This document shows, in pieces, positions 15,941 to 35,015 of a stretch of 64,000 nt of DNA. The notes below the pieces were generated by a model. The model was not told the DNA's origin. It saw only the letters and a list, made by a program, of their open reading frames with translations, and searched no databases. Source of the stretch: an uncultured delta proteobacterium. GTDB lineage: Bacteria > Myxococcota > Myxococcia > Myxococcales > Myxococcaceae. The DNA lies in contig CAWCKH010000004.1 in NCBI GenBank assembly GCA_963796055.1, positions 2,368,001 through 2,432,000 on the forward strand, in the 5' to 3' direction. A program made the translations under genes and the position numbers. The number at the start of each line of letters is the position of its first letter. Positions within the stretch are counted from its first letter, which is position 1.

Positions 15941-15971
15941 CTACGTCGCCACCCTTTCACGAAGGACGTCG

Positions 15972-15987
15972 GGCAAGAACCACGCCA
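15972..15987 (-). promoter_or_regulatory. Putative sigma-54 -24/-12 promoter
   Basis: TGGCGTGGTTCTTGCC (GG-N10-GC), about 32 nt upstream of the 15940 start. Confidence 0.65.
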
Positions 15988-16020
15988 GCTGAAGAAACTA
16001 CCCGTGCGAACCGCGACGGA

Positions 16021-16066
16021 CGGCAGAGCTTGCGCATGCAAGCAGGCGGCGACGCATGTCCTGCGC
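16021..16066. promoter_or_regulatory. Two GCGCA-N5-TGCGC-like palindromes
   Basis: CGGCAGAGCTTGCGC (16021-16035) and ACGCATGTCCTGCGC (16052-16066), between divergent genes. Confidence 0.65.
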
Positions 16067-16122
16067 ACTCGGTCCGGTTGGGCGATGGCACGCCCGGTCC
16101 GCCATCGCGGAGCCTGCGTCGG

Positions 16123-16138
16123 TGGTCCATCCGATGCA
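16123..16138 (+). promoter_or_regulatory. Putative sigma-54 promoter
   Basis: TGGTCCATCCGATGCA, upstream of the CBS gene at 16179. Confidence 0.6.
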
Positions 16139-16178
16139 AATCATGGCTTCACTTCGCGCTTCGCTCTCGGAGGTCGCC

Positions 16179-16655
16179 ATGAGGCTGATGGAAATCATGA
16201 CCACGGACGTGCGGACCGCCTCGGCGACGGAAGATGCGGAGAAGGCGTTCCAGCGAATGCGTAATGGGCGAATCCGGCATCTCGTCGTGATGAACGGACG
16301 CCGGGTGGTGGGCGTGCTCTCGGAACGGGACGTCGGTGGGTCGCGCGGCAGCGGAGTGCGCGCTGGCAAGACCGTGGGCGAGCTGATGTCGGGCCAGGCC
16401 ATCACCGCCTCTCCGACGACGACCGTTCGTCAGGCGGCGAATCTGCTCCGCGCTCGGAACATCGGCTGCCTGCCCATCGTCGAGGATGGCGAGCTCGAAG
16501 GGATCGTCACCGTGACGGACGTGCTGGAGCTCCTGGGCAGGCAGACCCAGCTCTCGCCCACTGCCAGCTCCCGGTTCAAGCCGCAACACGGCTCCAAGTG
16601 GAAGCCGATTCGCCGAGTGGCGCGCTCCCAGCGTCCACCCTTGTTCCCGAGGTAG
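16179..16655 (+). CDS. CBS-pair protein
   Basis: EIMTT..IRHLVV..VGVLSERD and ELMS..IGCLPIV..GIVTVTD. GGAGG RBS. Confidence 0.9.
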   Translation: MRLMEIMTTDVRTASATEDAEKAFQRMRNGRIRHLVVMNGRRVVGVLSERDVGGSRGSGVRAGKTVGELMSGQAITASPTTTVRQAANLLRARNIGCLPIVEDGELEGIVTVTDVLELLGRQTQLSPTASSRFKPQHGSKWKPIRRVARSQRPPLFPR

Positions 16656-16657
16656 TC

Positions 16658-17326
16658 GTGAACGGTTTCGTCGATCGCGAAGACGCGGGCCGCAGGCTGG
16701 CGGCGCAGCTCAGCTCCTACGCGGCCGAGCGTCCCATCGTTCTGGCTCTTCCCCGAGGGGGCGTTCCGGTGGGTTACGAGATTGCCCGGGCGCTGCATGC
16801 ACCGCTCGACGTGTGGGTGGTCAGGAAGGTCGGGGTTCCCTGGCATCCCGAGCTCGGCGCCGGCGCCGTGGCCGAAGGAGGATACGTCCATCTCAACCAG
16901 GACGTCCTCGAGCACATCGGGCTTTCGGAGGCAGAGCTCGCCAAGATCGTCCAGAGCAAGCAGCGCGAGGTCCAAGAGCGGGTGCGGCTGTTCCGGGGGG
17001 ATCACCCGCCGCCAGTCCTTCGCGACCGAACGGTCATCGTGGTCGACGACGGGATCGCGACCGGTGGCACGGTGCACGCCGCGATTCGGTCGATCCGCGC
17101 GCAGGGGCCGAAGGCGATCGTGCTCGCGGTGCCGGTGGCCAGTCCCGAGGTGGTCGAAGTGCTCGGACGCGAAGTGGACGGTCTCGTTTGCTTGCGAATG
17201 CCCCCTGACCTCTACGCCATCGGCGTCTGGTACGTGAACTTCAGCCAGGTCTCGGATGACCAGGTAGCCCGTCTCCTCGACCGCGCTCGGCGGGACCAGA
17301 CCGAGGCCCAGGATGCCGTCGCCTGA
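16658..17326 (+). CDS. Phosphoribosyltransferase family protein
   Basis: FVDREDAGRRLA..LALPRGGVPV..VIVVDDGIATGGT PRPP-binding motif. Confidence 0.9.
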   Translation: MNGFVDREDAGRRLAAQLSSYAAERPIVLALPRGGVPVGYEIARALHAPLDVWVVRKVGVPWHPELGAGAVAEGGYVHLNQDVLEHIGLSEAELAKIVQSKQREVQERVRLFRGDHPPPVLRDRTVIVVDDGIATGGTVHAAIRSIRAQGPKAIVLAVPVASPEVVEVLGREVDGLVCLRMPPDLYAIGVWYVNFSQVSDDQVARLLDRARRDQTEAQDAVA

Positions 17327-17990
17327 GAGCGGAGCCCGCAAGGAGAGCCTGGTCATCCCTGCCGGCGGAGTGGAGGTCGAAGGCGACCTGACGATTCCTG
17401 ACGGTGCGCGCGGGCTCGTCCTGTTCGCTCACGGAAGTGGCAGCAGCCGCAAGAGCACGAGGAATCGGTTTGTGGCGCAGGTGCTCCGCGAACGAGAGCT
17501 CGGAACCCTGCTCTTCGACCTCTTGACCGCCGCCGAGGAGAGGCGAGACGCCATCGATGCCCACCTGCGCTTCGACATCCCGCTGCTCGCGAGCCGCCTC
17601 GGTGAGGTCACGGACCGGATGCGACAGTCTGGTCCCGGCAGGGAGCTTTCCATCGGTTACTTCGGGGCGAGCACCGGTGCAGCGGCAGCATTGATCGCGG
17701 CGGCAGAGCGCCCCCGCGACATCGGTGCCGTCGTCTCCCGGGGTGGTCGGCCAGACCTCGCCATTGAGGCACTCGCTCGCGTCCGCGCACCAACGCTGCT
17801 CATCGTCGGTGGCGCGGACACGACGGTGCTCGAGCTGAACCGCGAGGCGCTGGCGCGGATCCCGGGGCCCAAGCAGCTCACGGTGATTCCGGGAGCGACC
17901 CATCTCTTCGAGGAACCCGGTGCTCTGGAAACGGTGGCTCGCCTCGCGGGGGATTGGTTCGTGGAGCACCTGGGAACGCCGCCGGTCTGA
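17313..17990 (+). CDS. Dienelactone hydrolase-family alpha/beta hydrolase
   Basis: LFAHGSGSSR, GYFGASTG, VSRGGRPDLA, GATHLFEEPG. Confidence 0.9.
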   Translation: MPSPESGARKESLVIPAGGVEVEGDLTIPDGARGLVLFAHGSGSSRKSTRNRFVAQVLRERELGTLLFDLLTAAEERRDAIDAHLRFDIPLLASRLGEVTDRMRQSGPGRELSIGYFGASTGAAAALIAAAERPRDIGAVVSRGGRPDLAIEALARVRAPTLLIVGGADTTVLELNREALARIPGPKQLTVIPGATHLFEEPGALETVARLAGDWFVEHLGTPPV

Positions 17991-18027
17991 GCGAGGCTGC
18001 CCGACTCTTCCATCGTTTGCCCGAGGT

Positions 18028-19230
18028 TCAGGGCTCCGACTGCCGGAGTGCTTCCCGGGAGCGGAACGGCTGGCGCTGCGTTCGTCGCCCCTGGCGAACC
18101 GCGGTCTCGAACATCACCAGCTCGCCGATGTTCTCCGGGGTGACGATTCCGAGGACTTCCTTGTCCACCGTGACCACGAGGGTGGACGGCTCGTGCTGGC
18201 CGAACCTGCTCAGCGCGCGTTCGAGCATCTCTCCGGGCTCGGCCGTTCCGAAGTCACGGTGCATGAAGTCCTCGACGGGAGCGGTCTTCCCGGCCTCGGC
18301 CAGGCCACGGACGAGATCGGCTCGGGTCAGGACCCCGACTGCTCGATGCTCCTCGACGACTGGAAAGTCCTGCTGGAACCCAGCCAGGGTCAGCTCCACG
18401 GCTCTGGAGAGAGGCTCCCGACGTCCGACGACCTGAAAGTCGGTGATCATCGCGTTCTGGACGGGCACGCCAGCGAGGGCCGATCTCAGCTGGACGAGCG
18501 AGGACTCATGCTGTGCGCCCATCCAGACGAAGAGCGCAATCAAGACCAGCACCGGATTGAACAGCAATCCGAGCAGCCCGAAGACCAGCGCGATGGCCTG
18601 TCCCAACCGAGCCGCCACCTCGGTTGCCCGGGCGTAGGGCATCCGCAGAGCAAGGGCTGCTCGAAGGACCCGTCCTCCATCCATGGGGAAGGCCGGGATC
18701 AGGTTGAAGACGGCCAGCGAGACGTTGATCCACATGAAGGTCGTGAGGAAGGGACCGCCGCCCGCTGACGCGCCCGAAAACCCCACCGGGCCGCCCGTGG
18801 CGCGGAGGATGCCGAATAGGCCCAGAGCGATGACCAGGTTGGTGAACGGACCGGCGAGGGCCACCAGCAGCTCTTGACCTGGCTTCTCGGGCAGTCTCTC
18901 TAGGCTCGAAACCCCACCGATCGGCAGCAGGATGATCTCTCGAGTCCGGATGCCGAACCGACGAGCGGTCAGCGCATGGCTGAGCTCGTGGAGGACGACG
19001 GTGCCGAAGACGGCCACGATGAGGCCCAGACCGCGAAGCGCCGCCTGGACTCCCCCCTGCAGCAGTGAGGTGAGCCCCACCCAGAGCAGCAGGAGGAAGA
19101 ACGTGGCATGAACATAGAGGGTGATGCCAAAGGGTCGGCCGATCTTCCAGGACCAGCGCCGTCGCGACCCGTCCAGGGCCGGTTCTTGGAGCCCGCTCGT
19201 TTCTTTGCCTGGTGGTTCGCTGCCGGTCAC
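18028..19230 (-). CDS. Site-2 protease (M50) with CBS domains
   Basis: HELSH zinc motif, NLIPAFPMDGGR, C-terminal CBS pair. Confidence 0.92.
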   Translation of the reverse strand: MTGSEPPGKETSGLQEPALDGSRRRWSWKIGRPFGITLYVHATFFLLLLWVGLTSLLQGGVQAALRGLGLIVAVFGTVVLHELSHALTARRFGIRTREIILLPIGGVSSLERLPEKPGQELLVALAGPFTNLVIALGLFGILRATGGPVGFSGASAGGGPFLTTFMWINVSLAVFNLIPAFPMDGGRVLRAALALRMPYARATEVAARLGQAIALVFGLLGLLFNPVLVLIALFVWMGAQHESSLVQLRSALAGVPVQNAMITDFQVVGRREPLSRAVELTLAGFQQDFPVVEEHRAVGVLTRADLVRGLAEAGKTAPVEDFMHRDFGTAEPGEMLERALSRFGQHEPSTLVVTVDKEVLGIVTPENIGELVMFETAVRQGRRTQRQPFRSREALRQSEP

Positions 19231-19619: not shown

Positions 19620-19632
19620 GGTGTTCTCCGAG

Positions 19633-19702
19633 TGCAAGACAAGGACCCATCCCTGCGCTGAGCGGCCCAGCGGGGATGTGACTGGCCGCGCAAAGCTTGC
19701 GC
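19633..19702 (-). promoter_or_regulatory. Putative sigma-54 promoter plus perfect GCGCA-N5-TGCGC site
   Basis: GGGTCCTTGTCTTGCA (19648-19633, minus strand) and GCGCAAAGCTTGCGC (19688-19702). Confidence 0.7.
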
Positions 19703-19987
19703 GTCTAGTGATCCCTCTGAGAGGCCGCGCGGAGTGACCCCAGCGAGTGCTGGTCCGTGGCGCAGGTCTTGCCTGGAAACGGTTGCGGCTCGAATCGAGC
19801 TGGCGCGCGCGGCGCGGGACGCGCTCTTCCTCCCCCGGCGCGCCCACGGTGCCGAGTCCCGCGTTGGGGCCAGCTGCACAGGAAGCGGCCCAGAGACAGA
19901 GCAGGGCGAGACAGAGGAGCAGGGCGCGTGACCGGCGCTCTGGGAAGCCGCCCGATGCAGGTCTGGTGTTCATGCCTGATCTCGGTC

Positions 19988-21742
19988 TCAGAGCGACGCT
20001 CTGAGCTCGTTGGGCGTGCCGAGGTGACGGTGCCCGTGCAGCCTCCCCTCGAGCTGTCGCAGACCAAGCGTGTTCAGGACGTCTCCGCGCTCGAGCCACC
20101 CGCGGCGAGCCATCCAGACCCCATAGCGTAGGTTGCCCAGCTGGCTGGCGTGGTGGGCGTCGGTGGAAATGACCATGGCGACACCCGCCTCCTTGGCCAG
20201 CCGGCAATGCTTGTCATCGAGGTCCAGTCGCTCCGGCATGGCGTTGACTTCGAGCGCCACCCGTTGCTCGCGGGCGACCTCCAGCACCTTCTCGAAGTCG
20301 AAGGCATAGGCGTCCCGCAGCCCGAGCTGACGTCCGCTGGGGTGCCCGAGCACGTCGACGACCCCCGAGCGCATCGCGGCGATCATCCGCTGGGTGATCT
20401 TCCTGGGTGGGTCGGTGAAATGAGAATGGATGCTGGCCACGACGCAGTCGAGCCCGCGCAGGACGTCGAGCGGCAGGTCCAGCGTTCCGTCCTGGAGGAT
20501 GTCCACCTCGACCCCGGTCAGCAGGCCAGGCGCATCCTTTCGTTGCAGACCGAAGCGCTTGATCGCGAGCGCGTGTGCGCGCATCTGGGCAGGGCCGAGA
20601 CCGAGCGGCCGCGACTTCGAGTGATCGGTGATCGCCAGGTACTCCCGCCCGAGGCGTCCTGCCTCCTTGCAGAGCTCCTCGAGAGACGAGTGGCCATCGG
20701 AGGAGGCCTCGGAGTGGACGTGCAGGTCTCCTCGGACGTCCTTCTCCTCGATCAGCCGGGGCAGGCGTCCCTCCTCCGCGGCCTCGAGCTCGCCCGCGCC
20801 TTCACGCAGCTCGGGCGGAATCCAGGGCAGCCCCACCGCCCGGTAGACGTCCTGTTCGGTTTCGCCTCCGAGCCGCTTCCCTTGGCGGTCGAAGACGCCG
20901 TACTCGCTGAGCTTGAGGCCACGCCGCATGGCCCGGGTCCGAAGCTCGATGTTGTGGGCCTTGCTGCCGGTGAAGTAGTGCAACGCAGCTCCGAACGACT
21001 CGGGTGGCAGGATCCGCAGATCGGCCTGGAGCCCGCTCTTGAGACGGGCGGTGCACTTGGTCGGGCCAGTCGCGGTCAGTGCCTCCACTTCGGGCGCGTC
21101 CCGGAACGCGCGGATGACCTCGTCCGCGCTCGCGGCCGAGACCAGGAGATCGATGTCTCCGATCGTCTCCCGTCTGCGACGGATGCTGCCGGCCACCTCG
21201 GCGGCGCGGACGTGCGGCACCTTGCGCAGCCGCTCCGCAATCGACTCCGCGGTCGCCAGCGCTCGATGGAGGGGAACTCTGCCCTTGCGTGCCTGGTATC
21301 GACCCAGCGCGAGCAGGATCGCCGCCACCCTCTTGGCTCCCATCCGGGGAAGCCTCTCCATCGACCCGTCCCGGCACGCCTTCTCCAGGGCCGCGAGCTC
21401 CTTCACGTGCAGTCGCTTCCAGGCCAGAGAAGCCGTCTTCGGACCGATTCCCTCCACCCTCAAGAGCTCCAGCACCCCCGGGGGGACCTTCGCCAGCAGC
21501 TGGTCGTGCTCGCGAAAGCGACCGGTGCTCAGCAGCTCCTCGATGTGCGCGGCGATGCGTTCGCCGATCGAGGGAAGCTCGGTCAGCTTCCCCTCTCGCC
21601 ACAGCTCGGAGACGGGGGTGGGGAGGAGATCCACGATCTGTGCGGCCTGCCGATACGCGCGTGCCTTGAAAGCGTTTCCGCCGGTCAGCTCGAGCAGATC
21701 GGCCACCTCGGCGAGGACCTGGGCAACGTCGGCGTTCTCCAT
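19988..21742 (-). CDS. polX: DNA polymerase X with PHP domain
   Basis: FKARAY, AGSIRR..GDIDLL, DLR, YFTGSKAHN. PHP motifs DLHVHS, ITDHS, STDAH. Confidence 0.93.
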   Translation of the reverse strand: MENADVAQVLAEVADLLELTGGNAFKARAYRQAAQIVDLLPTPVSELWREGKLTELPSIGERIAAHIEELLSTGRFREHDQLLAKVPPGVLELLRVEGIGPKTASLAWKRLHVKELAALEKACRDGSMERLPRMGAKRVAAILLALGRYQARKGRVPLHRALATAESIAERLRKVPHVRAAEVAGSIRRRRETIGDIDLLVSAASADEVIRAFRDAPEVEALTATGPTKCTARLKSGLQADLRILPPESFGAALHYFTGSKAHNIELRTRAMRRGLKLSEYGVFDRQGKRLGGETEQDVYRAVGLPWIPPELREGAGELEAAEEGRLPRLIEEKDVRGDLHVHSEASSDGHSSLEELCKEAGRLGREYLAITDHSKSRPLGLGPAQMRAHALAIKRFGLQRKDAPGLLTGVEVDILQDGTLDLPLDVLRGLDCVVASIHSHFTDPPRKITQRMIAAMRSGVVDVLGHPSGRQLGLRDAYAFDFEKVLEVAREQRVALEVNAMPERLDLDDKHCRLAKEAGVAMVISTDAHHASQLGNLRYGVWMARRGWLERGDVLNTLGLRQLEGRLHGHRHLGTPNELRASL

Positions 21743-21768: not shown

Positions 21769-21878
21769 TGCAAACACGGCACCATCCGGATGCGGGTCCC
21801 GGTCAGTGGAGTGGCAGTGCAGGATCTGCGCAGGGTACCGCCCTCGACGGCTCAGCTCGCCGGGGAGGGTTTCTTGCA
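21769..21878. promoter_or_regulatory. Divergent sigma-54-type promoters flanking a central GCGCA-N5-TGCGC-like site
   Basis: TGGTGCCGTGTTTGCA (21784-21769, minus), GTGCAGGATCTGCGC (21817-21831), GGGAGGGTTTCTTGCA (21863-21878, plus). Confidence 0.7.
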
Positions 21879-21914: not shown

Positions 21915-22502
21915 ATGCAGGTGCCTCTCCAAATCAGTCATCTTCACGCTGCTCCCTCGGAACCACTCGACAAGCTCATCCGGGAGCGAGCGGCCGAGCT
22001 GGAGCAGTTCTATCCACGCATTACCGGCTGCCATGTCTGGATCGAGCACCCCGGTCAGCACCATCGAAGAGGCAAGGGCGCGCACTTTCGGGTGCGCATC
22101 GAGCTCTCCGTTCCCAGCAAGAAGCTCGTCGTCTCCCGGGACCCGGCGGCTCATCGGCCCAACGAGGATGTGTACCTGGCGACGAGCGAGGCCTTTCACG
22201 AGATGCGCCGGCAGCTCCAGGATTACGCGCGCCTGCAACGTGGCGACGTGAAGGCCAGCATCCGGCCTCCGCATGCCCGAGTGGCGCGGCTGCATCCCGA
22301 AGAGGGCTTCGGGTTTCTGGAGACTGCCGACGGGCGCGAGATCTACTTCCATCGTGCCAGCGTGCTGGGCGGTGGATTCGATCGGCTCACCGTCGGGAGC
22401 GAGGTTCGGTTCTCCGAGGAGCCCGGTGAGAAGGGTCCACAAGCGAGCTCGGTTCAGCTGGCGGGGGAGGCCCACGCGCCCGGGGATGAACCGGGGAGCT
22501 GA
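21915..22502 (+). CDS. HPF/RaiA ribosome-associated protein fused to a cold-shock domain
   Basis: MQVPLQIS..RITGCHVWIEHP..FRVRIELSVP..DVYLA, then EGFGFLETADGREIYFHR..GEKGPQAS. Confidence 0.9.
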   Translation: MQVPLQISHLHAAPSEPLDKLIRERAAELEQFYPRITGCHVWIEHPGQHHRRGKGAHFRVRIELSVPSKKLVVSRDPAAHRPNEDVYLATSEAFHEMRRQLQDYARLQRGDVKASIRPPHARVARLHPEEGFGFLETADGREIYFHRASVLGGGFDRLTVGSEVRFSEEPGEKGPQASSVQLAGEAHAPGDEPGS

Positions 22503-22554: not shown

Positions 22555-24532
22555 TCACTTCATCGGGTGAGCACGGCGCCCCGCAGAGCCTTCGAGGGGA
22601 AGAGGGTGCACCCCTTGAGGCCCTTTCTGTTCGCCAGGTCGAAGAGGGGTTCCACCCCGCTGCTCACGTTGCCGGCCAGAAGGCTGATGGTCCGGGTCCC
22701 GCTGGAGGGGCGTGGGCCGCGTAGGAGGCCTGACTCCCGGAGCGGGTCGACGATGGGGCGGGGGATTCCCTGATGAGTGCTGCGCGCGCTGGCCGGAGTG
22801 CCGCGCCCTCCCTGCTCGCTGCCGGTACATCTCGAGGATCTCCTCATCCGTGGTCGCGTCCTGCGGCCCCTTGTCCGGGCGCCAGCGGCCGGTGAAGCGC
22901 GGGAACCGCAGGGCGAGCCCCATCCCCTCGGGAAGCTCCGCCCGGCCCGCGGTGTGTGTCGGGCTGCGGGTGATCTCCCCGCCGAGCACCTCCAGAACCA
23001 CCACCGGTTCGAACCAGACGTCGGCCTTCAAGCTCCAGTCCAATCGAGGATCGGGTTCCGCTCGCTCGTATCGGCGCATCCGTCGCGGAAGCGCGGCCAG
23101 CTCCTCGTCGCTGAACCCTGTTCCGCACTTGCAGACCGTGCGAAAGACGTCGCTTCGCGGATCGTAGGAGGCCAGGAGAAGTGCACCGTACGTGCCGGCT
23201 CGTCGACCCTTCCCGTGGAGTGCCCCCACCACCACCAGGTCGAGCGGTTCCTTCATCTCGGCCCGGTATTCCCGCTTGAGCTTGATCCACTGCCAGCCCC
23301 GGGCCCCGGCGCGGTACGTCCCCTCGGCGTCCTTGCAGACCAGGCCTTCACATCCAGCGCGGAGCGCTTGATGAAAGAACGCGTCGAGCTCCTCGGGCGT
23401 GTGAGCCTCGCGGCTGGTGGCGAGGCGAACCTCATTCCCGAGGACCAGCAGACGCTCGAGCTCTCTACGCCGGATCCGGAGCGGACTCGAGGTGAGGTCC
23501 TTGCCGTCGACCAGCAGCACGTCGAAGAGGAACAAGACCGTCGGGATCCGCTCCACGGCCTCGGCGACGCCATGCTTCCGTCGCCGCGGCATCAGCTGCT
23601 GGAAGGGGAGCAACCTCCCCGTCTTCCGGTCGACGGCCACGACCTCGCCCTCGACGATCAGCTGTCTCGCTCCAAGTGAGCGGCGGGCCGCATCCACGAC
23701 GTCCGGGTACTGCTCGGTGACCCTCTCCAGACGTCGGGAGATGAGCTCGACGTGCTCGCCGTTGCGATGGATCTGGAGCCGTTCGCCGTCGTACTTGTAC
23801 TCGGCAATGCAGCGATTGCCGAGCTTGGCGACGATGTCCTCCACGCTGTACAGGCGCTCGGCGAGCATCGGACGGATGGGCTTGTCGACCGTGGCTCGGA
23901 TCTCCTCCAGCGCCCGTGGCCCCCGCTCCGCAAGGGCCCTCGCCGCGGAGGCGAGATTCTGCGGTCAAGTTGTAGGCCCGCTCCGCGTTCGCCGGCGGTG
24001 CACCGAAGGCCTCGACCAGACCCTCGAGCACGGTGGCATCGCCCACGCCGATCCGGAGCCGCCCGGTCACCGTCCGCAGCAGATAGCGCGCCTCCAGAGG
24101 GGTGGCTCTGGTGAGAAGCGCGCGCAGGAGATCCAGCTTCAGCGACTGGGAGCCCTTTCCGGCCAGCAGTGCGATGCGCTCGAAGGACCCGTAGACCTCC
24201 TCGACCGAGAGCGGCGGGGCAACGGCCTGGTGGGCTTGCATCAAGTGCTGGGCGGCGTCGCCCAGATCTCCCCGGCGCCGAGCCTCACGGGAGACCGCCA
24301 GGTCCGAGGTCCCCGCAGCTGCCGCCACTGCCCGGAGCGCCAGCTTCTCGCCCAGCCCGAGTTCCACTCCTTCCCAGTCGGGCCTCAGCTTGCCCTGAAT
24401 CAGGAAGACGACCTTGGCGATGACCCGAGCCGGTGTGTGGGCGAGGAGGCGCGCCAGCTCGGCGGTGACCTGCAGCCGGGAGCCAGTGCTCTCGATCCGG
24501 GAGTAGACCTCGGTGAGACTCCTGTAGAGCAT
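22555..24532 (-). pseudogene. ATP-dependent DNA ligase with a +1 frameshift near 23957
   Basis: N-terminal DNA-binding domain from ATG 24532 (..LRIGVGD..AYNLT). Catalytic KYDG, EGLVCK, WIKLK and LRFPRF motifs are in another frame. Removing one base restores AYNLTADLA..PIRPMLAE. Confidence 0.88.
22560..22750 (-). pseudogene. Collapsed remnant of a class II (NrdJ/NrdZ-like) ribonucleotide reductase
   Basis: TISLLAGNVSSGVEPLF joined directly to DLANRKGLKGCTLF..RGAVL. Confidence 0.7.
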
Positions 24533-24556: not shown

Positions 24557-24705
24557 TGCATGGGGCGCGCCGGAACACCGGATGCGCCGATGAAGTCTGC
24601 CCGCAGAGATTGCGCGAACAGCACGGGAGGATTCGGGGTCGAATTCAGCTCTGCCGCTGCAGACGGAGGCATCGCTCACGCGTCCAAGTTGGAACGATCG
24701 TTGCT
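24557..24705. promoter_or_regulatory. Divergent sigma-54-type promoters with a GCGCA-N5-TGCGC-like site
   Basis: CGGCGCGCCCCATGCA (24572-24557, minus), CCGCAGAGATTGCGC (24601-24615), TGGAACGATCGTTGCT (24690-24705, plus). Confidence 0.7.
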
Positions 24706-24751: not shown

Positions 24752-25243
24752 ATGTCCAGCATCACTGTGCGCCGGGAAGGCGGCGCGAAGCATCCGGCCC
24801 CCGTCGTCTCCACGCCCGATTTCTTCAGCCCGATTCGCGACCTCATCGAGCCGTTCAAGCGGCTGGCCCTCGCACCCTTCGGCGACTTTCGGTTCGTCTC
24901 GTTCGTTCCAGCCTTCGAGATCAAGGAGACCAAGGAAGGCTATCTGTTCACGGCCGACGTCCCGGGCGTGGAGCAAGCGAATCTCGAGATCTCCGTGACC
25001 GGCAATCGACTCACGGTGAGCGGGAAGCGCGAGGAGGCGAAGGAGGAACGCGGCGAGAGCTTCTACGCCTGCGAGCGCAGCTACGGAAGCTTCACCCGTT
25101 CCTTCAGCCTGCCGGAGGGAAGCGACGTGGAACACATCCACGCGGATCTGAAGGCAGGCGTCCTGACCATCAGCGTTCCGAAGAATCCGGAGATCAAGAC
25201 CAAGAAGGTCGAGATCAAGGCGGAGCAGGCGGCCAAGGCCTGA
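24752..25243 (+). CDS. Hsp20/alpha-crystallin small heat-shock protein
   Basis: FEIKET..ADVPG..ERSYGSFTRSFSLP..ADLKAGVLTISVPK. Confidence 0.93.
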   Translation: MSSITVRREGGAKHPAPVVSTPDFFSPIRDLIEPFKRLALAPFGDFRFVSFVPAFEIKETKEGYLFTADVPGVEQANLEISVTGNRLTVSGKREEAKEERGESFYACERSYGSFTRSFSLPEGSDVEHIHADLKAGVLTISVPKNPEIKTKKVEIKAEQAAKA

Positions 25244-26230: not shown

Positions 26231-26470
26231 TCACGCCCGGTCGCGCATCTCGCGGATTCCCTCGGCCGAAGCGCAATGGGCAGAGCAGAACATCTGGGTG
26301 CCCTTCTCCATGCCGTGGCCGAGGATCCGGACGTGGCAGTGGGCGCACCGCGGAGCGAGCGCTTCGATGGCGCACTCGAACGAGTCAAAGGTGTGAGTTT
26401 TCCCCTGGACGACGACCTGGAAGGCCTTGTCGTAGTCGTTCCTGCAGACCTCGCATTTCTGCGCTTGCAT
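26231..26470 (-). CDS. Prokaryotic metallothionein-like Cys-rich protein
   Basis: CEVC..YDKAF..FDSFECAI..CAHC..GHG..FCSAHCA. Confidence 0.85.
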   Translation of the reverse strand: MQAQKCEVCRNDYDKAFQVVVQGKTHTFDSFECAIEALAPRCAHCHVRILGHGMEKGTQMFCSAHCASAEGIREMRDRA

Positions 26471-26544
26471 GGTGATTCCTCTCTGTCACTCGGCCGCAAC
26501 CGGATGAACCGGCCCGGCCCTCGGCGACGAGCAGCTCCGGGGCC

Positions 26545-26815
26545 TCAGGCGCTCGGGCGAGGTGTCGGCACGCTCGACCGCGGTGCGCTGATTGCTGCAA
26601 CCGTCCCCGCCACTTCCTCGGGCGTGACCCCGTTGACGGTCTTGCTGCTCCGGAGGCGATGCGCGAGATCGTTCACGGTGACGATTCCCTTCAGGGCTCC
26701 CGTGCCGTCGACCACCGGGATGTCCTGTTCCCACATCTTCTTTCGCAGCCTGTTGCAGCGAATCCTCCGGCCGGCACGTGACCAGTCGCTTGCTCATGAT
26801 CTCCTCAACGCGCAT
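26545..26815 (-). pseudogene. CBS-pair pseudogene (frameshift plus internal deletion)
   Basis: MRVEEIMSKRLVTCRPEDSLQQAA, extra base near 26742, then KMWEQD fused to IPVVD..GIVTVNDLA. Too short for a CBS pair. Confidence 0.75.
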
Positions 26816-26915
26816 GACGGACCTCCTTTTCCGGTCGTCAAGCGGGTGTACTGCTCCGCCATCGGTTGGCCTCCCGCATGCAGCGTCAACGGTGCAGCTC
26901 CAGCGGGTCCTGCGA

Positions 26916-26961
26916 CCGCAAACCCTGCGGAGGAAGGGGTTATTTTCTGCAGAGATTGCGT
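26916..26961. promoter_or_regulatory. Two GCGCA-N5-TGCGC-like sites upstream of groEL
   Basis: CCGCAAACCCTGCGG (26916-26930) and CTGCAGAGATTGCGT (26947-26961). Confidence 0.55.
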
Positions 26962-29931: not shown

Positions 29932-30073
29932 TGCGAAGGCCGTGCCGCGTCCGGGCTTCATCCAGCGCCGCGTGGCGGGCAAGTCACGCGTTGCTGAAAC
30001 CCTCCGCTCGAACGCGCAGGCTTTGCGTGAGCCGTCACCACGGATGAACCGGCTCTCTGGCATGGGTGATGCT
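29932..30073. promoter_or_regulatory. Divergent sigma-54-type promoters with a GCGCA-N5-TGCGC-like site
   Basis: CGGCACGGCCTTCGCA (29947-29932, minus), GCGCAGGCTTTGCGT (30014-30028), TGGCATGGGTGATGCT (30058-30073, plus). Confidence 0.7.
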
Positions 30074-30114: not shown

Positions 30115-30768
30115 ATGAGAACCGATGCAGACCTGCAGAGGGCAGTGCAAGAGGAGCTCTCGTTCGAGCCGACCATCGTCGCCACCGACATCGGGGTCAC
30201 GGTCAAGAATGGGATTGTCACCCTCTTCGGGACGGTTCCTGATTACACCAGCAAGTTGGCGGCCGAGAGGGCGGCAGAGCGCGTCGCCGGCGTGCGTGCG
30301 CTGGCCAAGGATCTCACTGTAAAGCTGCCCGGAGAGAGTCGGCGCTCGGACTCGGAGATCGCCGAGGCAGCGCTGAAGGCGTTTGCCTGGGACGTGCAGG
30401 TCCCAGAAAAGCGTCTCACGTTGGAGGTACAGAACGGGTTCGTGACGCTCAAGGGTGAGGTGAACTGGTATTTCCAGAGGAAGGCGGCCGAGGAGAACGT
30501 ACGGAAGCTGACCGGTGTCGTCGGGGTCAGCAATCAGATCACGATCAAGCCGAACCTCACCGCAAAGGAGGTCCGGTCGAAGATCGAATCGGCACTTCAG
30601 CGGCGGGCAGTCCGTGATGCCCGGCAAATCATCGTCGACGTGGAGGGCCGAACGGTCACCCTACGCGGTGAGGTTCACTCCTGGGCGGAGCGGGAAGACG
30701 CAGAGCTCGCTGCCTGGGCGGCGGAAGGAATTTCCGAGGTGCGCGACGAGATCCGGATTCGACCCTGA
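30115..30768 (+). CDS. Triple BON-domain protein
   Basis: Three repeats of D..L/I..V.V..G.VTL.G.V..A..GV..V. Confidence 0.92.
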   Translation: MRTDADLQRAVQEELSFEPTIVATDIGVTVKNGIVTLFGTVPDYTSKLAAERAAERVAGVRALAKDLTVKLPGESRRSDSEIAEAALKAFAWDVQVPEKRLTLEVQNGFVTLKGEVNWYFQRKAAEENVRKLTGVVGVSNQITIKPNLTAKEVRSKIESALQRRAVRDARQIIVDVEGRTVTLRGEVHSWAEREDAELAAWAAEGISEVRDEIRIRP

Positions 30769-31231: not shown

Positions 31232-31246
31232 ACGCAAGTCTTGCGC
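31232..31246. promoter_or_regulatory. GCGCA-N5-TGCGC-like site
   Basis: ACGCAAGTCTTGCGC, upstream of the gene at 31330. Confidence 0.6.
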
Positions 31247-31329
31247 ACAGGATTCGCAGACTGCGCCTGGTCTCCAGCACTTGCCGCGCATGCCTGATGC
31301 ATTCATGTGCGGAGGAAGAAGGTGTCGCC

Positions 31330-31608
31330 ATGACCATGTTCGCATTCCTGAGCTGGATCGTGCTCGGAGCGGTGCTCGGAGCGGTGCTCGCGACAGTCTG
31401 GAAGGAACGAGGACTTACCCTGGCCTGGGGGACCGCGATCGGCGGGGTCGGCGGAGTGGTGGGCGGGTTGATCGCTCGGTTCGTCTTCCCGGCCGGGGCG
31501 GTCTTCGACGGGTTGGCGCTGGCCGCTGCCCTCGTGGGTGCAGTGGTGGCCATGTTCATCGCCAAGTCCCGCGTGGAGCACACGGACCGGCCAGGCGCCA
31601 CGGTCTGA
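31330..31608 (+). CDS. GlsB/YeaQ/YmgE-family stress membrane protein
   Basis: LSWIVLGAVLG.LA..G.VGGVVGG.I..ALVGAVV, three TM helices. Confidence 0.75.
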   Translation: MTMFAFLSWIVLGAVLGAVLATVWKERGLTLAWGTAIGGVGGVVGGLIARFVFPAGAVFDGLALAAALVGAVVAMFIAKSRVEHTDRPGATV

Positions 31609-31682
31609 TCTGAGCAGGCGCCCGGGCGACTGGAACGGGACGCTGACGGTGCTTGGCTTCGAAGGGGTGACGTGTCCTTCCG

Positions 31683-33116
31683 TCACCCCTTGAGCACGCC
31701 CCACGGTCGCAGACGGGCGACCTTGCGTGCGATGCCCGCCCGCGCGACGACGTCCACCACCCGCTCCACGTCCTTGTACGCCAGCGGCGCCTCCTCGGCG
31801 AGCTCGGCATTCGAAGGGCAGCGGACCACGATACCCTGCGCTTCGAGCTCCTTGCGCAGGGCGTGGCCTTCCACGCGCCGCTTCGCCGCGTGGCGGCTGA
31901 GCGCGCGCCCCGCTCCGTGGCAGCAGCTGCCAAACGAGACCTCGTCCGAGCCGGCCGTCCCCACCAGCACGAAGGTCCGCGTCCCCATGCTCCCGGGAAC
32001 GAAGACCGGCTGACCCACGCCCTGGTAGCGCGCCGGCAGCTCGGGGTTGCCCGGCCCGAAGGCGCGGGTGGCTCCCTTCCTGTGGACGCAGAGACGCCGG
32101 CCGGCGTGCTCCTCGAGCTTGGCGATGTTGTGCGCCACGTCGTAGACGAGCTCCATCCGGGCGTCTCCACAGCCGCCGAGGATCCGCTCGGCGACCGTCC
32201 GCGCTCGGTGGCTGAGCACCTGGCGATTGGACCAGGCGAAGTTGGCCGCGGCGCACATCGCCGCGAAGTAGCTCTGCCCTTCCGGAGAGGAGAGCGGCGC
32301 GCACGCCAGCTGACGATCCGGCAGCTCGATGCCGAACCGCGCGAGCGAGGCGTCCATCGTGCGCACCGCGTCGGTGCAGACCTGATGCCCGAGACCTCGG
32401 GAGCCGGTGTGGATGAGGATCGTCATCTGGCCCGCGAAGAGGCCGAGGGCCGCGGCCGCTTTGTCGTCGAACACCGTCTCCACCTCCTCGACCTCGAGGA
32501 AGTGGTTGCCGCCTCCCAGGGTTCCCAGCTGGTCACGCCCGCGCTCCCTGGCCCGGGCAGAGACGGCGGAAGGATCTGCAGCGGCCAGCCGGCCTCCGGA
32601 TTCGATCCGCTCCAGGTCCTCCCGCGTCCCCAGGCCGAGCGAGCCGACGACGTACGGACAACCGTCGCTGAGGACCCGATCGAGCTCCTGGTCCGACAGG
32701 GAGAGCCGTCCATGCCGGCCGTAGCCAGTGGGAATGCTCCTGCTCAGCTCGTGGACGAACGTCTCCAGCCGGGCGCCGATCTGCGCCCGGGTCAGCCGGG
32801 AGGCCAGGAGACGGACGCCGCAGTTGATGTCGAAGCCGATGCCTCCAGGAGAGATGACCCCATCGGGGATCAAGGTGGCCGCGACGCCTCCGACCGGGAA
32901 GCCGTACCCCTCGTGCATGTCCGGCATGCCGACCGCTCGGCCCCAGGTCCCGGGCAAGGTGGTGACGTTGATGAGCTGGTGCAGGCTCTGGTCGCGCGCG
33001 ATCTGGGTCATCAGCTCCCGGTCGGCGATGATCCGCGCCGGAACGTGCATCCCCGGAGCGGCCCCCTTGGGGATCTCGAAGACCACCTCGGAGATCTGAA
33101 CGGGGAGCGGATCCAT
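31683..33116 (-). CDS. rtcB: RNA-splicing ligase RtcB
   Basis: MPDMHEGYGFPVG, GFDINCG, GGGNHF, HTGSRG, HNIAK, HRKGAT, PGSMG, HGAGR, EEAP.AYK. Confidence 0.95.
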   Translation of the reverse strand: MDPLPVQISEVVFEIPKGAAPGMHVPARIIADRELMTQIARDQSLHQLINVTTLPGTWGRAVGMPDMHEGYGFPVGGVAATLIPDGVISPGGIGFDINCGVRLLASRLTRAQIGARLETFVHELSRSIPTGYGRHGRLSLSDQELDRVLSDGCPYVVGSLGLGTREDLERIESGGRLAAADPSAVSARARERGRDQLGTLGGGNHFLEVEEVETVFDDKAAAALGLFAGQMTILIHTGSRGLGHQVCTDAVRTMDASLARFGIELPDRQLACAPLSSPEGQSYFAAMCAAANFAWSNRQVLSHRARTVAERILGGCGDARMELVYDVAHNIAKLEEHAGRRLCVHRKGATRAFGPGNPELPARYQGVGQPVFVPGSMGTRTFVLVGTAGSDEVSFGSCCHGAGRALSRHAAKRRVEGHALRKELEAQGIVVRCPSNAELAEEAPLAYKDVERVVDVVARAGIARKVARLRPWGVLKG

Positions 33117-33126
33117 CGGTCGTTCC

Positions 33127-33540
33127 TCACACGTCGAGCACGACGCTCGCCTGCCAGGTGCCGCCGCGGTTCTCCACGAAGAGGCCGTGGAGCGTCGCGG
33201 CCTTCACCTGAGTCCGGAGCCCCTCGGGAGACACGCCGGCGACCGCCGCCTGCATCTCGTCTTTGCCGACCCGCTCCACGCGAAAGCGGGTGAAGACCTG
33301 CTTCGAGGTTTCCGAGAGGAAGATGAGCTCGTTGAGCCACTCCACCAGGAGCGCCGCTCGATCTCGCGCCCGCACCGAGAGCCGCTGCTCGGCCCCCGGG
33401 GTGGTCGTGGCCGGGAGCTCTCCCAGCATGATCTCCGCCAGAGCCCGTCCGGCCTCGACGAAGAGCTCCTCGAGGGACGACGCGCTCAGCACCAGCCGGA
33501 CCTCGCCGGTGTGCTCCTCGAAGCGATGGTCCGCGGCCAT
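33127..33540 (-). CDS. Archease
   Basis: FEEHTGE..LLVEWLNEL..VKAATLH..VVLDV, directly upstream of rtcB. Confidence 0.92.
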   Translation of the reverse strand: MAADHRFEEHTGEVRLVLSASSLEELFVEAGRALAEIMLGELPATTTPGAEQRLSVRARDRAALLVEWLNELIFLSETSKQVFTRFRVERVGKDEMQAAVAGVSPEGLRTQVKAATLHGLFVENRGGTWQASVVLDV

Positions 33541-33544
33541 GGGC

Positions 33545-34363
33545 TCAGCCCCACCGGAAGGTCGCGTAGAGGAGCACCAGCGGCCCGGTGAAGAGCACCG
33601 AGTCCACCCGGTCGAGCACTCCTCCATGCCCCGGGATGAGATGGCCGGAGGTCTTCACGCCCCGCGCGCGCTTGAGCAGTGACTTGCTCAGGTCTCCCAG
33701 TGGACCGAACACGGAGGTGAGGATGGCCACGACCGCGGCGTCCTTCCAGGAGAGTTGCACCAGGCGGGCAAGACACGCGGCCTCGGCGACGGCCAGCGCC
33801 CCGACGAAACCGCACCACCAGCCTTCCCAGGTCTTGCCAGGGCTGACCCGCGGTGCGAGGTGGTGCCGCCCGAAGCGGCGCCCTCCGAAATAGGCAGCGG
33901 CATCGTTGGTCGCCGCTGCCGCCAGCAGGCAGAGCACCCACCCCCGCCCTTGCTCCAGCTCGCGCAGTGCAGGCAGCGCCAGCAGAGACCCACCGCAGAA
34001 CACCGTCCCCGAGACCAGGGCCGATGCTCTCTGCGCGCCCTGGGCCGCATCGCCGCGCAGGACGTTCCAGGACCAGCTCAGGATCGAGATGCCCAGGACC
34101 AGCGCCGCGGCGATGCCCCAGCGTGGAGCAGAGGAGGGGAGCACCGGGAGGGCGGCGCTGGCGATGACGGCGAGCCACGCGTCGGGCCCGAGCCGTCCAA
34201 GCGCGAGCCGGAAGAACTCGAAGGACGCCAGAGCGGCGACAATCGCCACGCCGATTGCGAAGGGAAGACCTCCCAGCCAGACCAGCCCGATGACCGGAGG
34301 GATCAGGACCGCGGCGGCCAGAAGTCTCCGTCCGAGCTCGCGGTCTCGCGGCGCGGTCTCCAC
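33545..34363 (-). CDS. cdsA: Phosphatidate cytidylyltransferase
   Basis: DAAAYFGGR.FG..LAPRVSPGKTWEG..GDLSKS.LKR..GVK.SG.LIPGHGGVLDRVDS. Start uncertain (34363 or 34402). Confidence 0.88.
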   Translation of the reverse strand: METAPRDRELGRRLLAAAVLIPPVIGLVWLGGLPFAIGVAIVAALASFEFFRLALGRLGPDAWLAVIASAALPVLPSSAPRWGIAAALVLGISILSWSWNVLRGDAAQGAQRASALVSGTVFCGGSLLALPALRELEQGRGWVLCLLAAAATNDAAAYFGGRRFGRHHLAPRVSPGKTWEGWWCGFVGALAVAEAACLARLVQLSWKDAAVVAILTSVFGPLGDLSKSLLKRARGVKTSGHLIPGHGGVLDRVDSVLFTGPLVLLYATFRWG

Positions 34364-34383
34364 GCTCGCTTCCGTCTCCGATG

Positions 34384-34614
34384 TCAGTCCCCGAGAGACC
34401 ACGGTTCCGTCGTGGGTCCGGTCCTCGGCACCCACGCCCCGTCGCTCTTGACGTAGGAACGCTTCACCGCCGCCCAGGCGATGCGGTGCGACATCGCGTC
34501 CTCGCCCCACCGCTCCCAGGCGTGGTTGAACGCGGCCCGGTAGATGTCCTGAGCATGCTCCGGGAGATGAGCTCGGACCCCGGCCGGGAGATCTTCGTTG
34601 CTGGCATAGGGCAT
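34384..34614 (-). CDS. chaB: ChaB-family protein
   Basis: MPY..DLP..V..LPEHAQDIY.AAFN.AW..HRIAWAAVKR.Y.K. Confidence 0.9.
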   Translation of the reverse strand: MPYASNEDLPAGVRAHLPEHAQDIYRAAFNHAWERWGEDAMSHRIAWAAVKRSYVKSDGAWVPRTGPTTEPWSLGD

Positions 34615-34641
34615 CGGCGCGCCTCCGTGCCGGAGCAAACG

Positions 34642-34719
34642 TGCATCGCGCGAGCCATGCCGATGGCTGGAGACTCCTGCTTCGGCAGCCCGCGTCCGAG
34701 GTGAGCGCATTTCTTGCGC
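34642..34719 (-). promoter_or_regulatory. Putative sigma-54 promoter plus perfect GCGCA-N5-TGCGC site
   Basis: TGGCTCGCGCGATGCA (34657-34642, minus) and GCGCATTTCTTGCGC (34705-34719). Confidence 0.72.
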
Positions 34720-34948
34720 GCATTCCATGCTCCGGCGTTTCCAGCCCCAGCTGGTCTGACCGAGTCTCTCGCTCTCTCCGTGCACGTGAGCGACAAGCGG
34801 AATTGCTGCGATGGCTGTGCCAGAGCTGTCGGATCCATGGCCACGCAATGAAGGACAGGTCATGCGACGGAGCGGGAGGGCAATGGTGCCTCCGGCTTCC
34901 TGATTGCTCATTTGCAACCTCGTCACCGAGCGCGGTCCTCGTCGCAAG

Positions 34949-34964
34949 CGGCACGGCCAGTGCA
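34949..34964 (+). promoter_or_regulatory. Putative sigma-54 promoter
   Basis: CGGCACGGCCAGTGCA, upstream of the ATG at 35016. Confidence 0.6.
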
Positions 34965-35015
34965 GCCCCTCTTCATGCGTCCTCGCGAGCGCAACGCCTG
35001 AACAAGGAGAAGGCC

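What the first reader, a model, noticed from the sequence alone, without database searches (positions are those of the whole stretch)
15970..34970. Hidden regulon: recurrent GCGCA-N5-TGCGC palindrome paired with sigma-54 promoters across a 20-kb block
Seen in sequence: ten palindrome copies, all intergenic. Perfect copies are at 19688 and 34705; near-perfect copies are at 16021, 16052, 21817, 24601, 26916, 26947, 30014 and 31232. Eleven GG-N10-GC elements (most ending TTGC or ATGC) lie 14-52 nt upstream of start codons, at 15972, 16123, 19633, 21769, 21863, 24557, 24690, 29932, 30058, 34642 and 34949. Established: GG-N10-GC is the sigma-54 -24/-12 signature. As I recall, the low-oxygen NtrC-type activator NmpR of Myxococcus xanthus binds GCGCA-N5-TGCGC; this recollection needs checking. 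Inference: these genes of unrelated function form one low-oxygen/stress regulon. I cannot assign the activator in this window.
Basis: partly seen in the sequence, partly recalled or inferred. Interest (0 to 1): 0.85.

Follow-up and report, generated by a model that had tools for sequence, protein, structure and literature searches.

The report
Low-oxygen regulon island in a myxobacterium
A 20-kb cluster of stress and dormancy-type genes in an uncultured myxobacterium carries, in front of almost every gene group, the published DNA site of the low-oxygen activator NmpR next to a sigma-54-type promoter sequence, and the genome encodes NmpR with its heme sensor elsewhere, so the cluster is likely switched on when oxygen runs out, an enlarged version of a known system.

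Summary
The motif is real. All ten palindromes and eleven GG-N10-GC elements are at the stated positions. A matrix trained outside the window finds 8 sites in 2.1 kb of block intergenic DNA and none in 17 kb of coding DNA (0 of 500 shuffles reach 8). GCGCA-N5-TGCGC is the published NmpR site of Myxococcus xanthus. The regulon is genome-wide (hemN, PFOR, hydrogenase maturation, USPs); this block is its densest part. Its cargo (hemerythrin-like, CBS, Hsp20, BON, HPF-CSD, PRTase, M50-CBS protease, RtcB-archease, PolX) parallels the DosR and lxa low-oxygen gene sets. The same cargo in other Myxococcales mostly lacks the boxes (present in 3 of 18 regions), which suggests rewiring. Binding, start sites and hypoxic induction are untested. 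The scan found the same kind of island before in another genome (e1-7425301). Verdict: new variant of a known system.

The parts
15482..15940 (-). hemerythrin-like (HHE) protein gene
   Evidence: no Pfam hit; Atlas top cluster 0.97 with 16% of members PF01814, next two 90-95% PF01814
15972..15985 (-). sigma-54-like -24/-12 element facing the hemerythrin-like gene
   Evidence: kept in G006 and G010
16021..16035 (.). NmpR-type box, 2 mismatches, 8.7 bits; paired 31 bp from 16052
   Evidence: kept in G006, G010
16052..16066 (.). NmpR-type box, 1 mismatch, 14.4 bits
16123..16136 (+). sigma-54-like element facing CBS-PRTase-hydrolase genes
   Evidence: identical in G006, G010
16179..16655 (+). tandem CBS-domain protein
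   Evidence: PF00571
16658..17326 (+). phosphoribosyltransferase
   Evidence: PF00156
17313..17990 (+). alpha/beta hydrolase
   Evidence: PF12146, PF12697 weak
18028..19230 (-). M50 metalloprotease with CBS domains
   Evidence: PF02163 + PF00571
19227..19619 (-). tandem CBS-domain protein
   Evidence: PF00571
19633..19646 (-). sigma-54-like element facing the CBS and M50 genes
   Evidence: kept in G003
19688..19702 (.). NmpR-type box, perfect, 19.7 bits
   Evidence: boxes before the same gene in G003, G007, G001
19759..19772 (+). additional sigma-54-like element with no clear gene downstream (orphan)
19988..21742 (-). PolX-PHP DNA polymerase (second, island-type copy)
   Evidence: housekeeping paralog at 39% elsewhere in the genome
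21769..21782 (-). sigma-54-like element facing polX
21817..21831 (.). NmpR-type box, 1 mismatch, shared by divergent polX and hpf-csd
   Evidence: present in G006, G010, G003, G007
21863..21876 (+). sigma-54-like element facing hpf-csd
21915..22502 (+). S30AE/HPF plus cold-shock domain protein
   Evidence: PF02482 + PF00313
22555..24532 (-). ATP-dependent DNA ligase, split by a one-base frameshift near 23958 relative to G010 and G003
24557..24570 (-). sigma-54-like element facing the ligase gene
24601..24615 (.). NmpR-type box, 1 mismatch
   Evidence: box in the same spacer of both G010 copies
24690..24703 (+). sigma-54-like element facing hsp20-prs
24752..25243 (+). Hsp20/alpha-crystallin
   Evidence: PF00011
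25301..26200 (+). ribose-phosphate pyrophosphokinase-like protein
   Evidence: PF13793, PF00156, PF14572
26231..26470 (-). small Cys-rich protein, conserved in G006 and G010 (95-97%)
26486..26815 (-). CBS-domain pseudogene (about 200 bp deleted, frameshifted versus G006)
   Evidence: kept in G006, G010, G003
26916..26930 (.). NmpR-type box, 2 mismatches, 12.0 bits; paired 31 bp from 26947
26947..26961 (.). NmpR-type box, 3 mismatches, 11.2 bits
27002..28618 (+). extra GroEL/Cpn60 with no adjacent groES called
   Evidence: PF00118
28760..29870 (-). SH3 plus L,D-transpeptidase; ends approximate
   Evidence: PF03734, PF08239; 95% to G006
29932..29945 (-). sigma-54-like element ending TCGC, facing the transpeptidase
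   Evidence: kept in G006, changed in the C7 copy
30014..30028 (.). NmpR-type box, 1 mismatch, 16.7 bits
30058..30071 (+). sigma-54-like element facing the BON gene
   Evidence: identical in G006 and the C7 copy
30115..30768 (+). triple BON-domain protein
   Evidence: PF04972
30809..31183 (+). CBS-like remnant (about 180 bp deleted versus G006)
31232..31246 (.). NmpR-type box, 1 mismatch, 17.7 bits
31287..31300 (+). conserved CG-N10-GC element where a sigma-54 GG-N10-GC would be expected
31330..31608 (+). 92-aa hydrophobic protein, no Pfam hit
31683..33116 (-). RtcB RNA ligase
   Evidence: PF01139
33127..33540 (-). archease
   Evidence: PF01951
33545..34363 (-). cytidylyltransferase (CdsA family)
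   Evidence: PF01148
34384..34614 (-). ChaB-family protein, first gene of the likely chaB-cdsA-archease-rtcB operon
   Evidence: PF06150
34642..34655 (-). sigma-54-like element facing chaB
34705..34719 (.). NmpR-type box, perfect, 17.6 bits
   Evidence: boxes before chaB in G010, G007, G008
34949..34962 (+). sigma-54-like element facing the ADC-family gene; link to the boxes unproven
35016..35903 (+). acetoacetate-decarboxylase-family gene
   Evidence: PF06314; found in 1 of 12 other genus genomes

Best explanation
The palindromes match the published NmpR consensus and are likely enhancer sites through which this genome's NmpR, predicted to be phosphorylated via the heme sensor NmpU and hybrid kinase NmpS when oxygen falls, would activate the neighbouring sigma-54-type promoters of the block. 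Shown here: the sites, their enrichment and conservation, and the nmpR/nmpUTS and rpoN genes in the genome. Inferred from M. xanthus: with oxygen present, NmpU keeps NmpS off; without it, NmpS phosphorylates NmpR at D54, and NmpR oligomerises on one or two boxes (pairs 30-31 bp apart) and opens sigma-54 promoters about 20-110 bp away. Most boxes sit between divergent genes, so eight promoter regions would serve up to about thirteen transcription units. The predicted output is a survival programme for energy-starved cells: ribosome hibernation (HPF-CSD), RNA and DNA repair (RtcB-archease, PolX, ligase), chaperones (Hsp20, GroEL), adenylate-sensing CBS proteins, envelope proteins and a hemerythrin-like protein. 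Outside the block the same switch would turn on oxygen-independent heme synthesis, ferredoxin-linked pyruvate oxidation and hydrogenase. The block is a fluid, partly decaying cassette array whose modules keep their own promoters when they move.
For: The consensus, sigma-54 dependence and hypoxic induction are published (PMC11841059). Genome-wide, perfect N5 sites number 28 in 0.76 Mb intergenic vs 13 in 4.77 Mb coding DNA, while spacers 2-4 and 6-9 give 1-6 intergenic sites. 45 of 85 intergenic sites have a strong sigma-54-like element within 120 bp, vs 7/34, 4/28, 3/28 and 4/26 for other spacers and 15% for random intergenic positions. The only protoglobin gene is a protoglobin-HisKA-HATPase followed by a receiver protein and a receiver-kinase hybrid, divergent from an NtrC-type activator; its globin matches AfGcHK, PDB 5ohe, at E 2e-46. 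That activator is 308/450 identical to the NmpR in locus L202, which matches six of eight M. xanthus primers tested with 0-1 mismatch; the next paralog is about 50%. D54 and the heme His are kept. The matrix from this genome scores the two sites before the L202 nmpR operon at 16.8 and 19.7 bits. Footprint identity in sister genomes: core 162/186, arms 98/124, sigma-54 positions 136/180, spacer 77/155, other intergenic 2264/3894. Secondary sites peak at 30-31 bp (13 of 32), matching the 14-15 bp gap in the paper. Boxes are conserved before PFOR (5 of 5), hypF (5 of 5) and hemN (5 of 5) in sister genomes; hemN, hemerythrin, CBS and USP genes are target types in the paper.
Against: There are no binding, start-site or expression data; no RNA holder was listed. 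The recognition helix differs at two positions (STRTIQYRL vs SVRKIQYRL). No box of 5 bits or more lies around the short nmpR/nmpU spacer, so the autoregulation seen in M. xanthus is not evident. Six of the eight promoter regions carry one strong box, whereas M. xanthus NmpR needed two sites in EMSA. Helical phasing of box to promoter was not significant (p about 0.1). At groEL the box pair lies downstream of the sigma-54-like element. pfk keeps a box in only 2 of 5 relatives. No cbb3 operon, a main M. xanthus target, was identified. The genome has over 30 sigma-54 activators, and I excluded only one by its known site.
Confidence: 0.85

Rival explanations
1. The sites are real sigma-54 enhancers, but a different activator of this genome binds them, for example the GAF-type activator at the block edge (35981-37531), and the signal is general stress rather than oxygen.
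For: More than 30 sigma-54 activators are present. The cargo (Hsp20, BON, CsbD-like, GroEL) also fits general stress. The adjacent activator is also next to the block in G010.
Against: The adjacent activator is PexR-like: it is divergent from ahpC-ahpD and has the published PexR palindrome CACCG-N6-CGGTG at 37554. No other paralog shares the NmpR helix. Boxes also precede hemN, PFOR and hydrogenase genes.
Confidence: 0.08
2. NmpR binds these sites, but the island is largely vestigial here: single sites are too weak and the cargo is decaying, so it is not an active regulon in this strain.
For: The ligase is frameshifted, two CBS genes have internal deletions, the CBS-facing promoter near 26850 is damaged, and an atpD fragment lies at the edge. 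There is a degraded second copy on C7. The block was not found by DNA similarity in several genus genomes.
Against: Boxes and promoters are more conserved than flanking or spacer bases across species. Most genes are intact and 75-98% identical to G006/G010 copies. Single boxes are also the pattern before conserved core genes such as hemN.
Confidence: 0.05
3. Chance matches in GC-rich DNA.
For: The whole-window excess is modest, bare GG-N10-GC is common, and raw genome-wide counts are uninformative in many relatives.
Against: Spacer-specific and intergenic-specific enrichment, pairing with sigma-54-like elements, and cross-species conservation.
Confidence: 0.01

Closest known systems
NmpRSTU system and NmpR regulon of Myxococcus xanthus (PMC11841059, main text and Tables S1-S2 read; PMC6211767, search listing only)
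   Same: Same consensus, sigma-54-type promoters, 30-31 bp pair spacing, orthologous nmpR/U/T/S, and shared target types (CBS protein, USP, hemN, hemerythrin).
   Different: The published regulon has 7 promoters and 23 genes, found under strict rules. Here there are 68 intergenic sites of at least 13 bits, including fermentation and hydrogenase genes and a 20-kb cargo cluster. Many promoters have a single box, autoregulation is not evident, nmpR is divergent from nmpU, and no cbb3 operon was identified.
lxa locus of Burkholderia cenocepacia (PMC3721108, passages and part of Table 4 read)
   Same: A strain-variable cluster with one motif repeated at many intergenic points (17 there) and at unlinked genes. 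Cargo overlaps: small heat-shock protein and phospholipid-binding proteins; USPs and acetoacetyl-CoA reductase lie outside the block here.
   Different: The lxa motif is TGA-N6-TCA, of Anr/Fnr type. Here the motif is an enhancer of a sigma-54 activator, and no FNR box or FNR-type protein was found.
DosR dormancy regulon of Mycobacterium tuberculosis (PMC5309233 and PMC7801807, passages read)
   Same: Heme-sensor-driven hypoxia regulon organised in gene blocks. It shares annotated functions with this block: RtcB (Rv2631), a phosphoribosyltransferase (Rv0571c), a metalloprotease (Rv2625c), alpha-crystallin (Rv2031c), a ribosome-associated factor (Rv0079), USPs and a triacylglycerol synthase.
   Different: Unrelated sensor and regulator (DosR is not a sigma-54 activator; recalled). 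The overlap is by annotation in reviews; I did not align the proteins.
PexR of M. xanthus (PMC12754779, passages read)
   Same: The GAF activator at the block edge has PexR's context (ahpCD) and PexR's palindrome.
   Different: It has a different site and a peroxide signal, and it does not explain the GCGCA boxes.

Membership tests
NmpR regulon | GCGCA-N5-TGCGC sites with intact GCA-N5-TGC core in intergenic DNA | tested here: met
   10 of 10 listed sites keep the core; enrichment
NmpR regulon | sigma-54 element between site and start codon, and rpoN present | tested here: met
   six of eight promoter regions have a canonical element in that geometry; 31232 has CG-N10-GC, and the groEL element lies upstream of its boxes; rpoN found
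NmpR regulon | two sites per promoter, 14-15 bp apart | tested here: inconclusive
   pairs 31 bp start to start (16 bp gap) at 2 of 8 block promoters; genome-wide peak at 30-31 bp; the others are single
NmpR regulon | NmpR ortholog with receiver D54, AAA+ domain and conserved HTH | tested here: met
   68% to the L202 protein, D54 kept, V87 is I, two helix substitutions
NmpR regulon | nmpU (protoglobin kinase with heme His), nmpT and nmpS in one operon | tested here: met
   only one receiver stretch of NmpT scored in Pfam
NmpR regulon | autoregulation of nmpR and nmpU promoters | tested here: not met
   no site of 5 bits or more in C5:204700-205300; a property of the M. xanthus circuit, not needed for the targets
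NmpR regulon | direct binding and NmpR-dependent, hypoxia-induced transcription | not testable with these tools
   needs EMSA, reporters or RNA; no RNA holder listed
FNR/Anr regulon (lxa type) | TTGAT-N4-ATCAA-type boxes and an FNR-type regulator | tested here: not met
   0 intergenic matches; the two Crp-family proteins above cut-off have 1 and 2 cysteines (box pattern recalled)
PexR regulon | CACCG-N6-CGGTG repeats at target promoters | tested here: not met
   between 14000 and 38000 the pattern occurs only at 36335 (coding) and 37554 (ahpC promoter), not in the block
DosR regulon | DosS/DosR regulator and sequence orthology of cargo | not tested
   functional overlap taken from review tables; no protein alignment made
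Integrative genomic island | integrase, tRNA target, terminal repeats | tested here: not met
   no tRNA, no convincing terminal repeat, no integrase among the annotated genes; lower GC (67.6% vs 72-73%) and variable location are present

The most novel reading that the evidence does not exclude
In FNR-less Myxococcales, NmpR is the global anoxia switch, the functional equivalent of FNR or DosR but working through sigma-54 and a globin sensor. A mobile dormancy cassette set (RtcB-archease, HPF-CSD, PolX, ligase, Hsp20, PRTase, M50-CBS, BON) has been rewired promoter by promoter onto NmpR in some lineages while staying under other promoters in others. The same dormancy gene kit would then have been captured independently by three unrelated oxygen sensors (DosR, Fnr/Anr, NmpR).
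Probability: 0.4. Interest if true: 0.65.

Novelty: new variant of a known kind. Interest (0 to 1): 0.42.

Why it matters
The 2025 paper states that the genes Nmp regulates in anaerobically growing relatives are unknown. This genome gives a concrete, testable answer: a much larger regulon covering fermentation, hydrogenase and a dormancy-type cluster, with promoters that can be assayed in existing M. xanthus NmpR-ON strains. Co-regulation also points to low-oxygen roles for poorly understood genes (ChaB, a second PolX, RtcB-archease, a small Cys-rich protein). The motif and regulator themselves are published, and the scan has seen a similar island before, which limits the surprise.

Tried and rejected
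Helical phasing of box-to-promoter distance: a first test looked positive, but its control was unmatched; the matched test gave p about 0.1, so no claim is made. Raw motif counts in 61 genomes did not track nmpU presence and were uninformative. Sequencing runs: no RNA holder listed; DNA contigs were short, low in depth and did not settle whether the ligase frameshift is real. No Rfam match at gathering threshold in 13500-38000, no tRNA, no terminal repeats. The adjacent GAF activator was rejected as the regulator. FNR and CRP boxes gave 0 intergenic hits. A PDB sequence search with the CBS protein gave only generic CBS matches. The adc promoter could not be footprinted because the only relative copy is at a contig end. 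MAFFT misaligned some promoters (P4, G003 in P1, parts of P2 and P8); these were left in the footprint counts. Gene calls came from my own codon model, so some 'intergenic' labels outside the block may be missed genes. Literature searches found no paper on NmpR targets outside M. xanthus; the library lacks most subscription journals. Figures of PMC11841059, which show the individual sites, could not be seen.

Full report
Observation. Three palindromes have 2-3 mismatches, but all keep GCA-N5-TGC. Over the whole window the 1-mismatch pattern is only mildly enriched (19 vs 10.6). Restricted to the block, a matrix trained on 33 sites outside the window finds 8 sites of at least 11 bits in 2,111 intergenic bases and none in about 17 kb of coding DNA; 0 of 500 shuffles reach 8. 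That script omitted the last spacer, which holds the perfect site 34705. Sigma-54-like elements ending [A/T]TGC number 12 vs 2.5 expected, although bare GG-N10-GC is common.

The motif is published. PMC11841059 (main text read; Tables S1-S2; figures not visible) defines GCGCA-N5-TGCGC as the NmpR site. All bound sites have a perfect GCA-N5-TGC core, pairs are mostly 14-15 bp apart, activation needs the sigma-54 site, and the mxan_4236 reporter rises 6.5-fold in hypoxia. The regulon has 7 promoters and 23 genes, including a CBS protein, a USP, cbb3 oxidase, hemN and a hemerythrin. The authors say the targets in Anaeromyxobacter are unknown.

The activator is in the genome. The window lies on C4 of a 5.5-Mb, 71% GC genome. 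The only protoglobin gene is a protoglobin kinase followed by a receiver protein and a receiver-kinase hybrid, divergent from an NtrC-type activator on C5. The globin matches AfGcHK. The activator is 68% identical to the NmpR of locus L202, which matches six of eight primers from the paper with 0-1 mismatch; the nearest paralog is about 50%. D54 and the heme His are kept, V87 is I, and the recognition helix has two substitutions. NmpU homologs occur in 12 of 12 other genus genomes, and NmpR homologs in 122 of 151 family genomes searched. The host is therefore inferred to belong to an uncultured genus in the same family as Myxococcus. A full rpoN is present. No box lies at the nmpR/nmpU spacer, so autoregulation differs from M. 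xanthus or is absent.

The regulon is genome-wide. Perfect sites number 28 intergenic vs 13 coding, 13-fold denser per base, and only the N5 spacer shows this. 45 of 85 intergenic sites have a strong sigma-54-like element within 120 bp, against 11-21% for other spacers and 15% at random. Secondary sites peak at 30-31 bp. The block is the densest 20 kb (8 sites; 837 of 1,109 sliding windows have none). I annotated 111 and 44 of the 239 proteins near outside sites. They include hemN, hemG-like genes, pyruvate:ferredoxin oxidoreductase, a 2-oxoacid oxidoreductase, NiFe-hydrogenase and hyp genes, PPDK, phosphofructokinase, a decaheme cytochrome, acetoacetyl-CoA reductase, a WS/DGAT operon, USPs and a hemerythrin. 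Many other neighbours have no obvious oxygen link. Boxes are conserved before PFOR, hypF and hemN in 5 of 5 sister genomes each, and before pfk in 2 of 5. No FNR-type protein or FNR box was found. A cbb3 operon was not identified.

Anatomy of the block. Eight promoter regions, mostly divergent, precede: a hemerythrin-like gene and CBS-PRTase-hydrolase; CBS-M50 protease; PolX and HPF-CSD; ligase and Hsp20-PRPP synthetase; a CBS remnant and GroEL; L,D-transpeptidase and BON; a small membrane protein; and ChaB-CdsA-archease-RtcB. GC is 67.6% vs 72-73% in the flanks, and GC3 is mostly 0.78-0.85 vs a genome median of 0.92. The ligase is frameshifted and two CBS genes have internal deletions relative to relatives. 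A degraded copy lies on C7. No tRNA, terminal repeat or integrase was found. Three promoters are atypical. At groEL a conserved sigma-54-like element (26868) lies upstream of the box pair, while the CBS-facing element is damaged here but intact in relatives. At 31287 a conserved CG-N10-GC replaces GG-N10-GC. At 19759 an element faces no clear gene.

Conservation and mobility. Large parts of the block occur in G006, G010, G003 and G007, with fragments in others of the 12 genus genomes. Gene order is shuffled, yet boxes stay with their genes. Identity is 87% in box cores, 79% in arms and 76% at sigma-54 positions, against 50% in spacers and 58% in other intergenic DNA, with misaligned promoters left in the counts. 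G010 has a shortened block at the same locus. In G007 a chaB-archease-rtcB-polX module with its boxes sits at another chromosomal site, and in G003 part of the block has other neighbours.

Beyond the genus. Island-type PolX (56-67% identical, distinct from a 40-46% housekeeping paralog), HPF-CSD and RtcB-archease occur patchily across the order, often next to each other or to GroEL, Hsp20, USP, BON or PRTase. Outside the genus, a box lay within 300 bp upstream of HPF-CSD in 1 of 17 loci with upstream DNA, and of island-type PolX in 0 of 22 at 11 bits. Some of these genes are internal to operons, and 3 of 6 housekeeping PolX controls had hits of 11.6-13.5 bits without a sigma-54 element. Of 18 wider regions, 3 (G214, G027, G070) have box plus sigma-54 before cargo genes, G214 repeatedly, and 10 have no site of 12 bits or more. 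G053 lacks boxes at its HPF-CSD gene but has nmp genes with boxes nearby. Several unboxed genes show -10-like hexamers by eye (untested). This fits lineage-specific rewiring, but direction and number of events need trees that I did not build.

Rivals. The activator at the block edge is PexR-like, with the PexR palindrome before ahpC (PMC12754779, passages), and does not explain the boxes. Chance is excluded. A vestigial regulon is possible but opposed by the footprint. Helical phasing was not significant. No RNA holder was listed.

Comparison. It works like, and on every sequence-level feature except autoregulation and regular site pairing belongs to, the NmpR regulon. As a clustered low-oxygen locus with one repeated motif it parallels the Burkholderia lxa locus (PMC3721108, passages). 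Its cargo parallels the DosR regulon by annotation (PMC5309233 and PMC7801807, passages); I did not align those proteins. Searches found no description of NmpR targets outside M. xanthus; PMC12753109 and PMC12316311 (passages) add none. The scan reported the same kind of island in another genome (e1-7425301), an unchecked AI note that I saw after reaching this reading.

Verdict. Real, conserved and very likely an NmpR/sigma-54 low-oxygen regulon (0.85). It is a new variant of a known kind: the motif and regulator are published, while the enlarged anaerobic regulon, the dormancy-type cluster and the apparent rewiring were not found in print. Interest 0.42.

Noticed in passing
window 35981-37531 (-) and 37540-38826: GAF sigma-54 activator divergent from ahpC-ahpD, with a perfect CACCG-N6-CGGTG at 37554 and a near copy at about 37598: a likely PexR ortholog and site.
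   Followed up: partly
window 26848-26961: Back-to-back sigma-54-like elements; the groEL-facing one lies upstream of the NmpR box pair in four genomes, so it may be a downstream enhancer or a repression site.
   Followed up: partly
window 31287-31300; G000 C7:5820 region, C1:289331, C7:8242; L239, L261: A recurrent CG-N10-GC element (also readable as GCGCA-N7-TGCA) near boxes: 6 of 37 best elements genome-wide, 0.088 per site vs 0.019 at random. It may be a variant sigma-54 promoter.
   Followed up: partly
window 19759-19990: Orphan sigma-54-like element on the + strand with no clear gene downstream; G003 has an ORF-like stretch at the equivalent place.
   Followed up: partly
window 14541-15053: Fragment of an ATP synthase beta-type gene at the left edge of the block, also present in G010; a DUF498 gene follows.
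   Followed up: no
G000 C7:1-8300 (L164): Degraded second copy of parts of the block (87-91% DNA identity, many frameshifts) at a contig start.
   Followed up: partly
G000 C5:237691-238704: A second, split rpoN-like sequence below the family cut-off.
   Followed up: no
L002:7242 and L206:11584-11614: NmpR-type boxes between the 3' ends of nmpR and hsp20, present in two genomes with no called gene to serve; possibly a small gene or RNA.
   Followed up: no
G000 C4:1939289: A 13.8-bit box without a sigma-54 element before the operon holding an alternative complex III-like and heme-copper oxidase gene set; possibly repression.
   Followed up: no
window 26231-26470 (-): 79-aa Cys-rich protein, 95-97% conserved in G006 and G010 and seen before archease-rtcB in G229; Atlas neighbours are unnamed or 'putative metallothionein'.
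   Followed up: partly
L295 (G214:C140:1-11233): A box-rich cluster with rtcB, archease, PRTase, hydrolase, CBS and groEL in a different family of the order.
   Followed up: partly
L120, L121 (G010 C62, C61); L124 (G003 C48): G010 has two copies of the polX/hpf/ligase/hsp20 module, and one promoter is nearly identical to that of G003, which hints at recent exchange or binning overlap.
   Followed up: no
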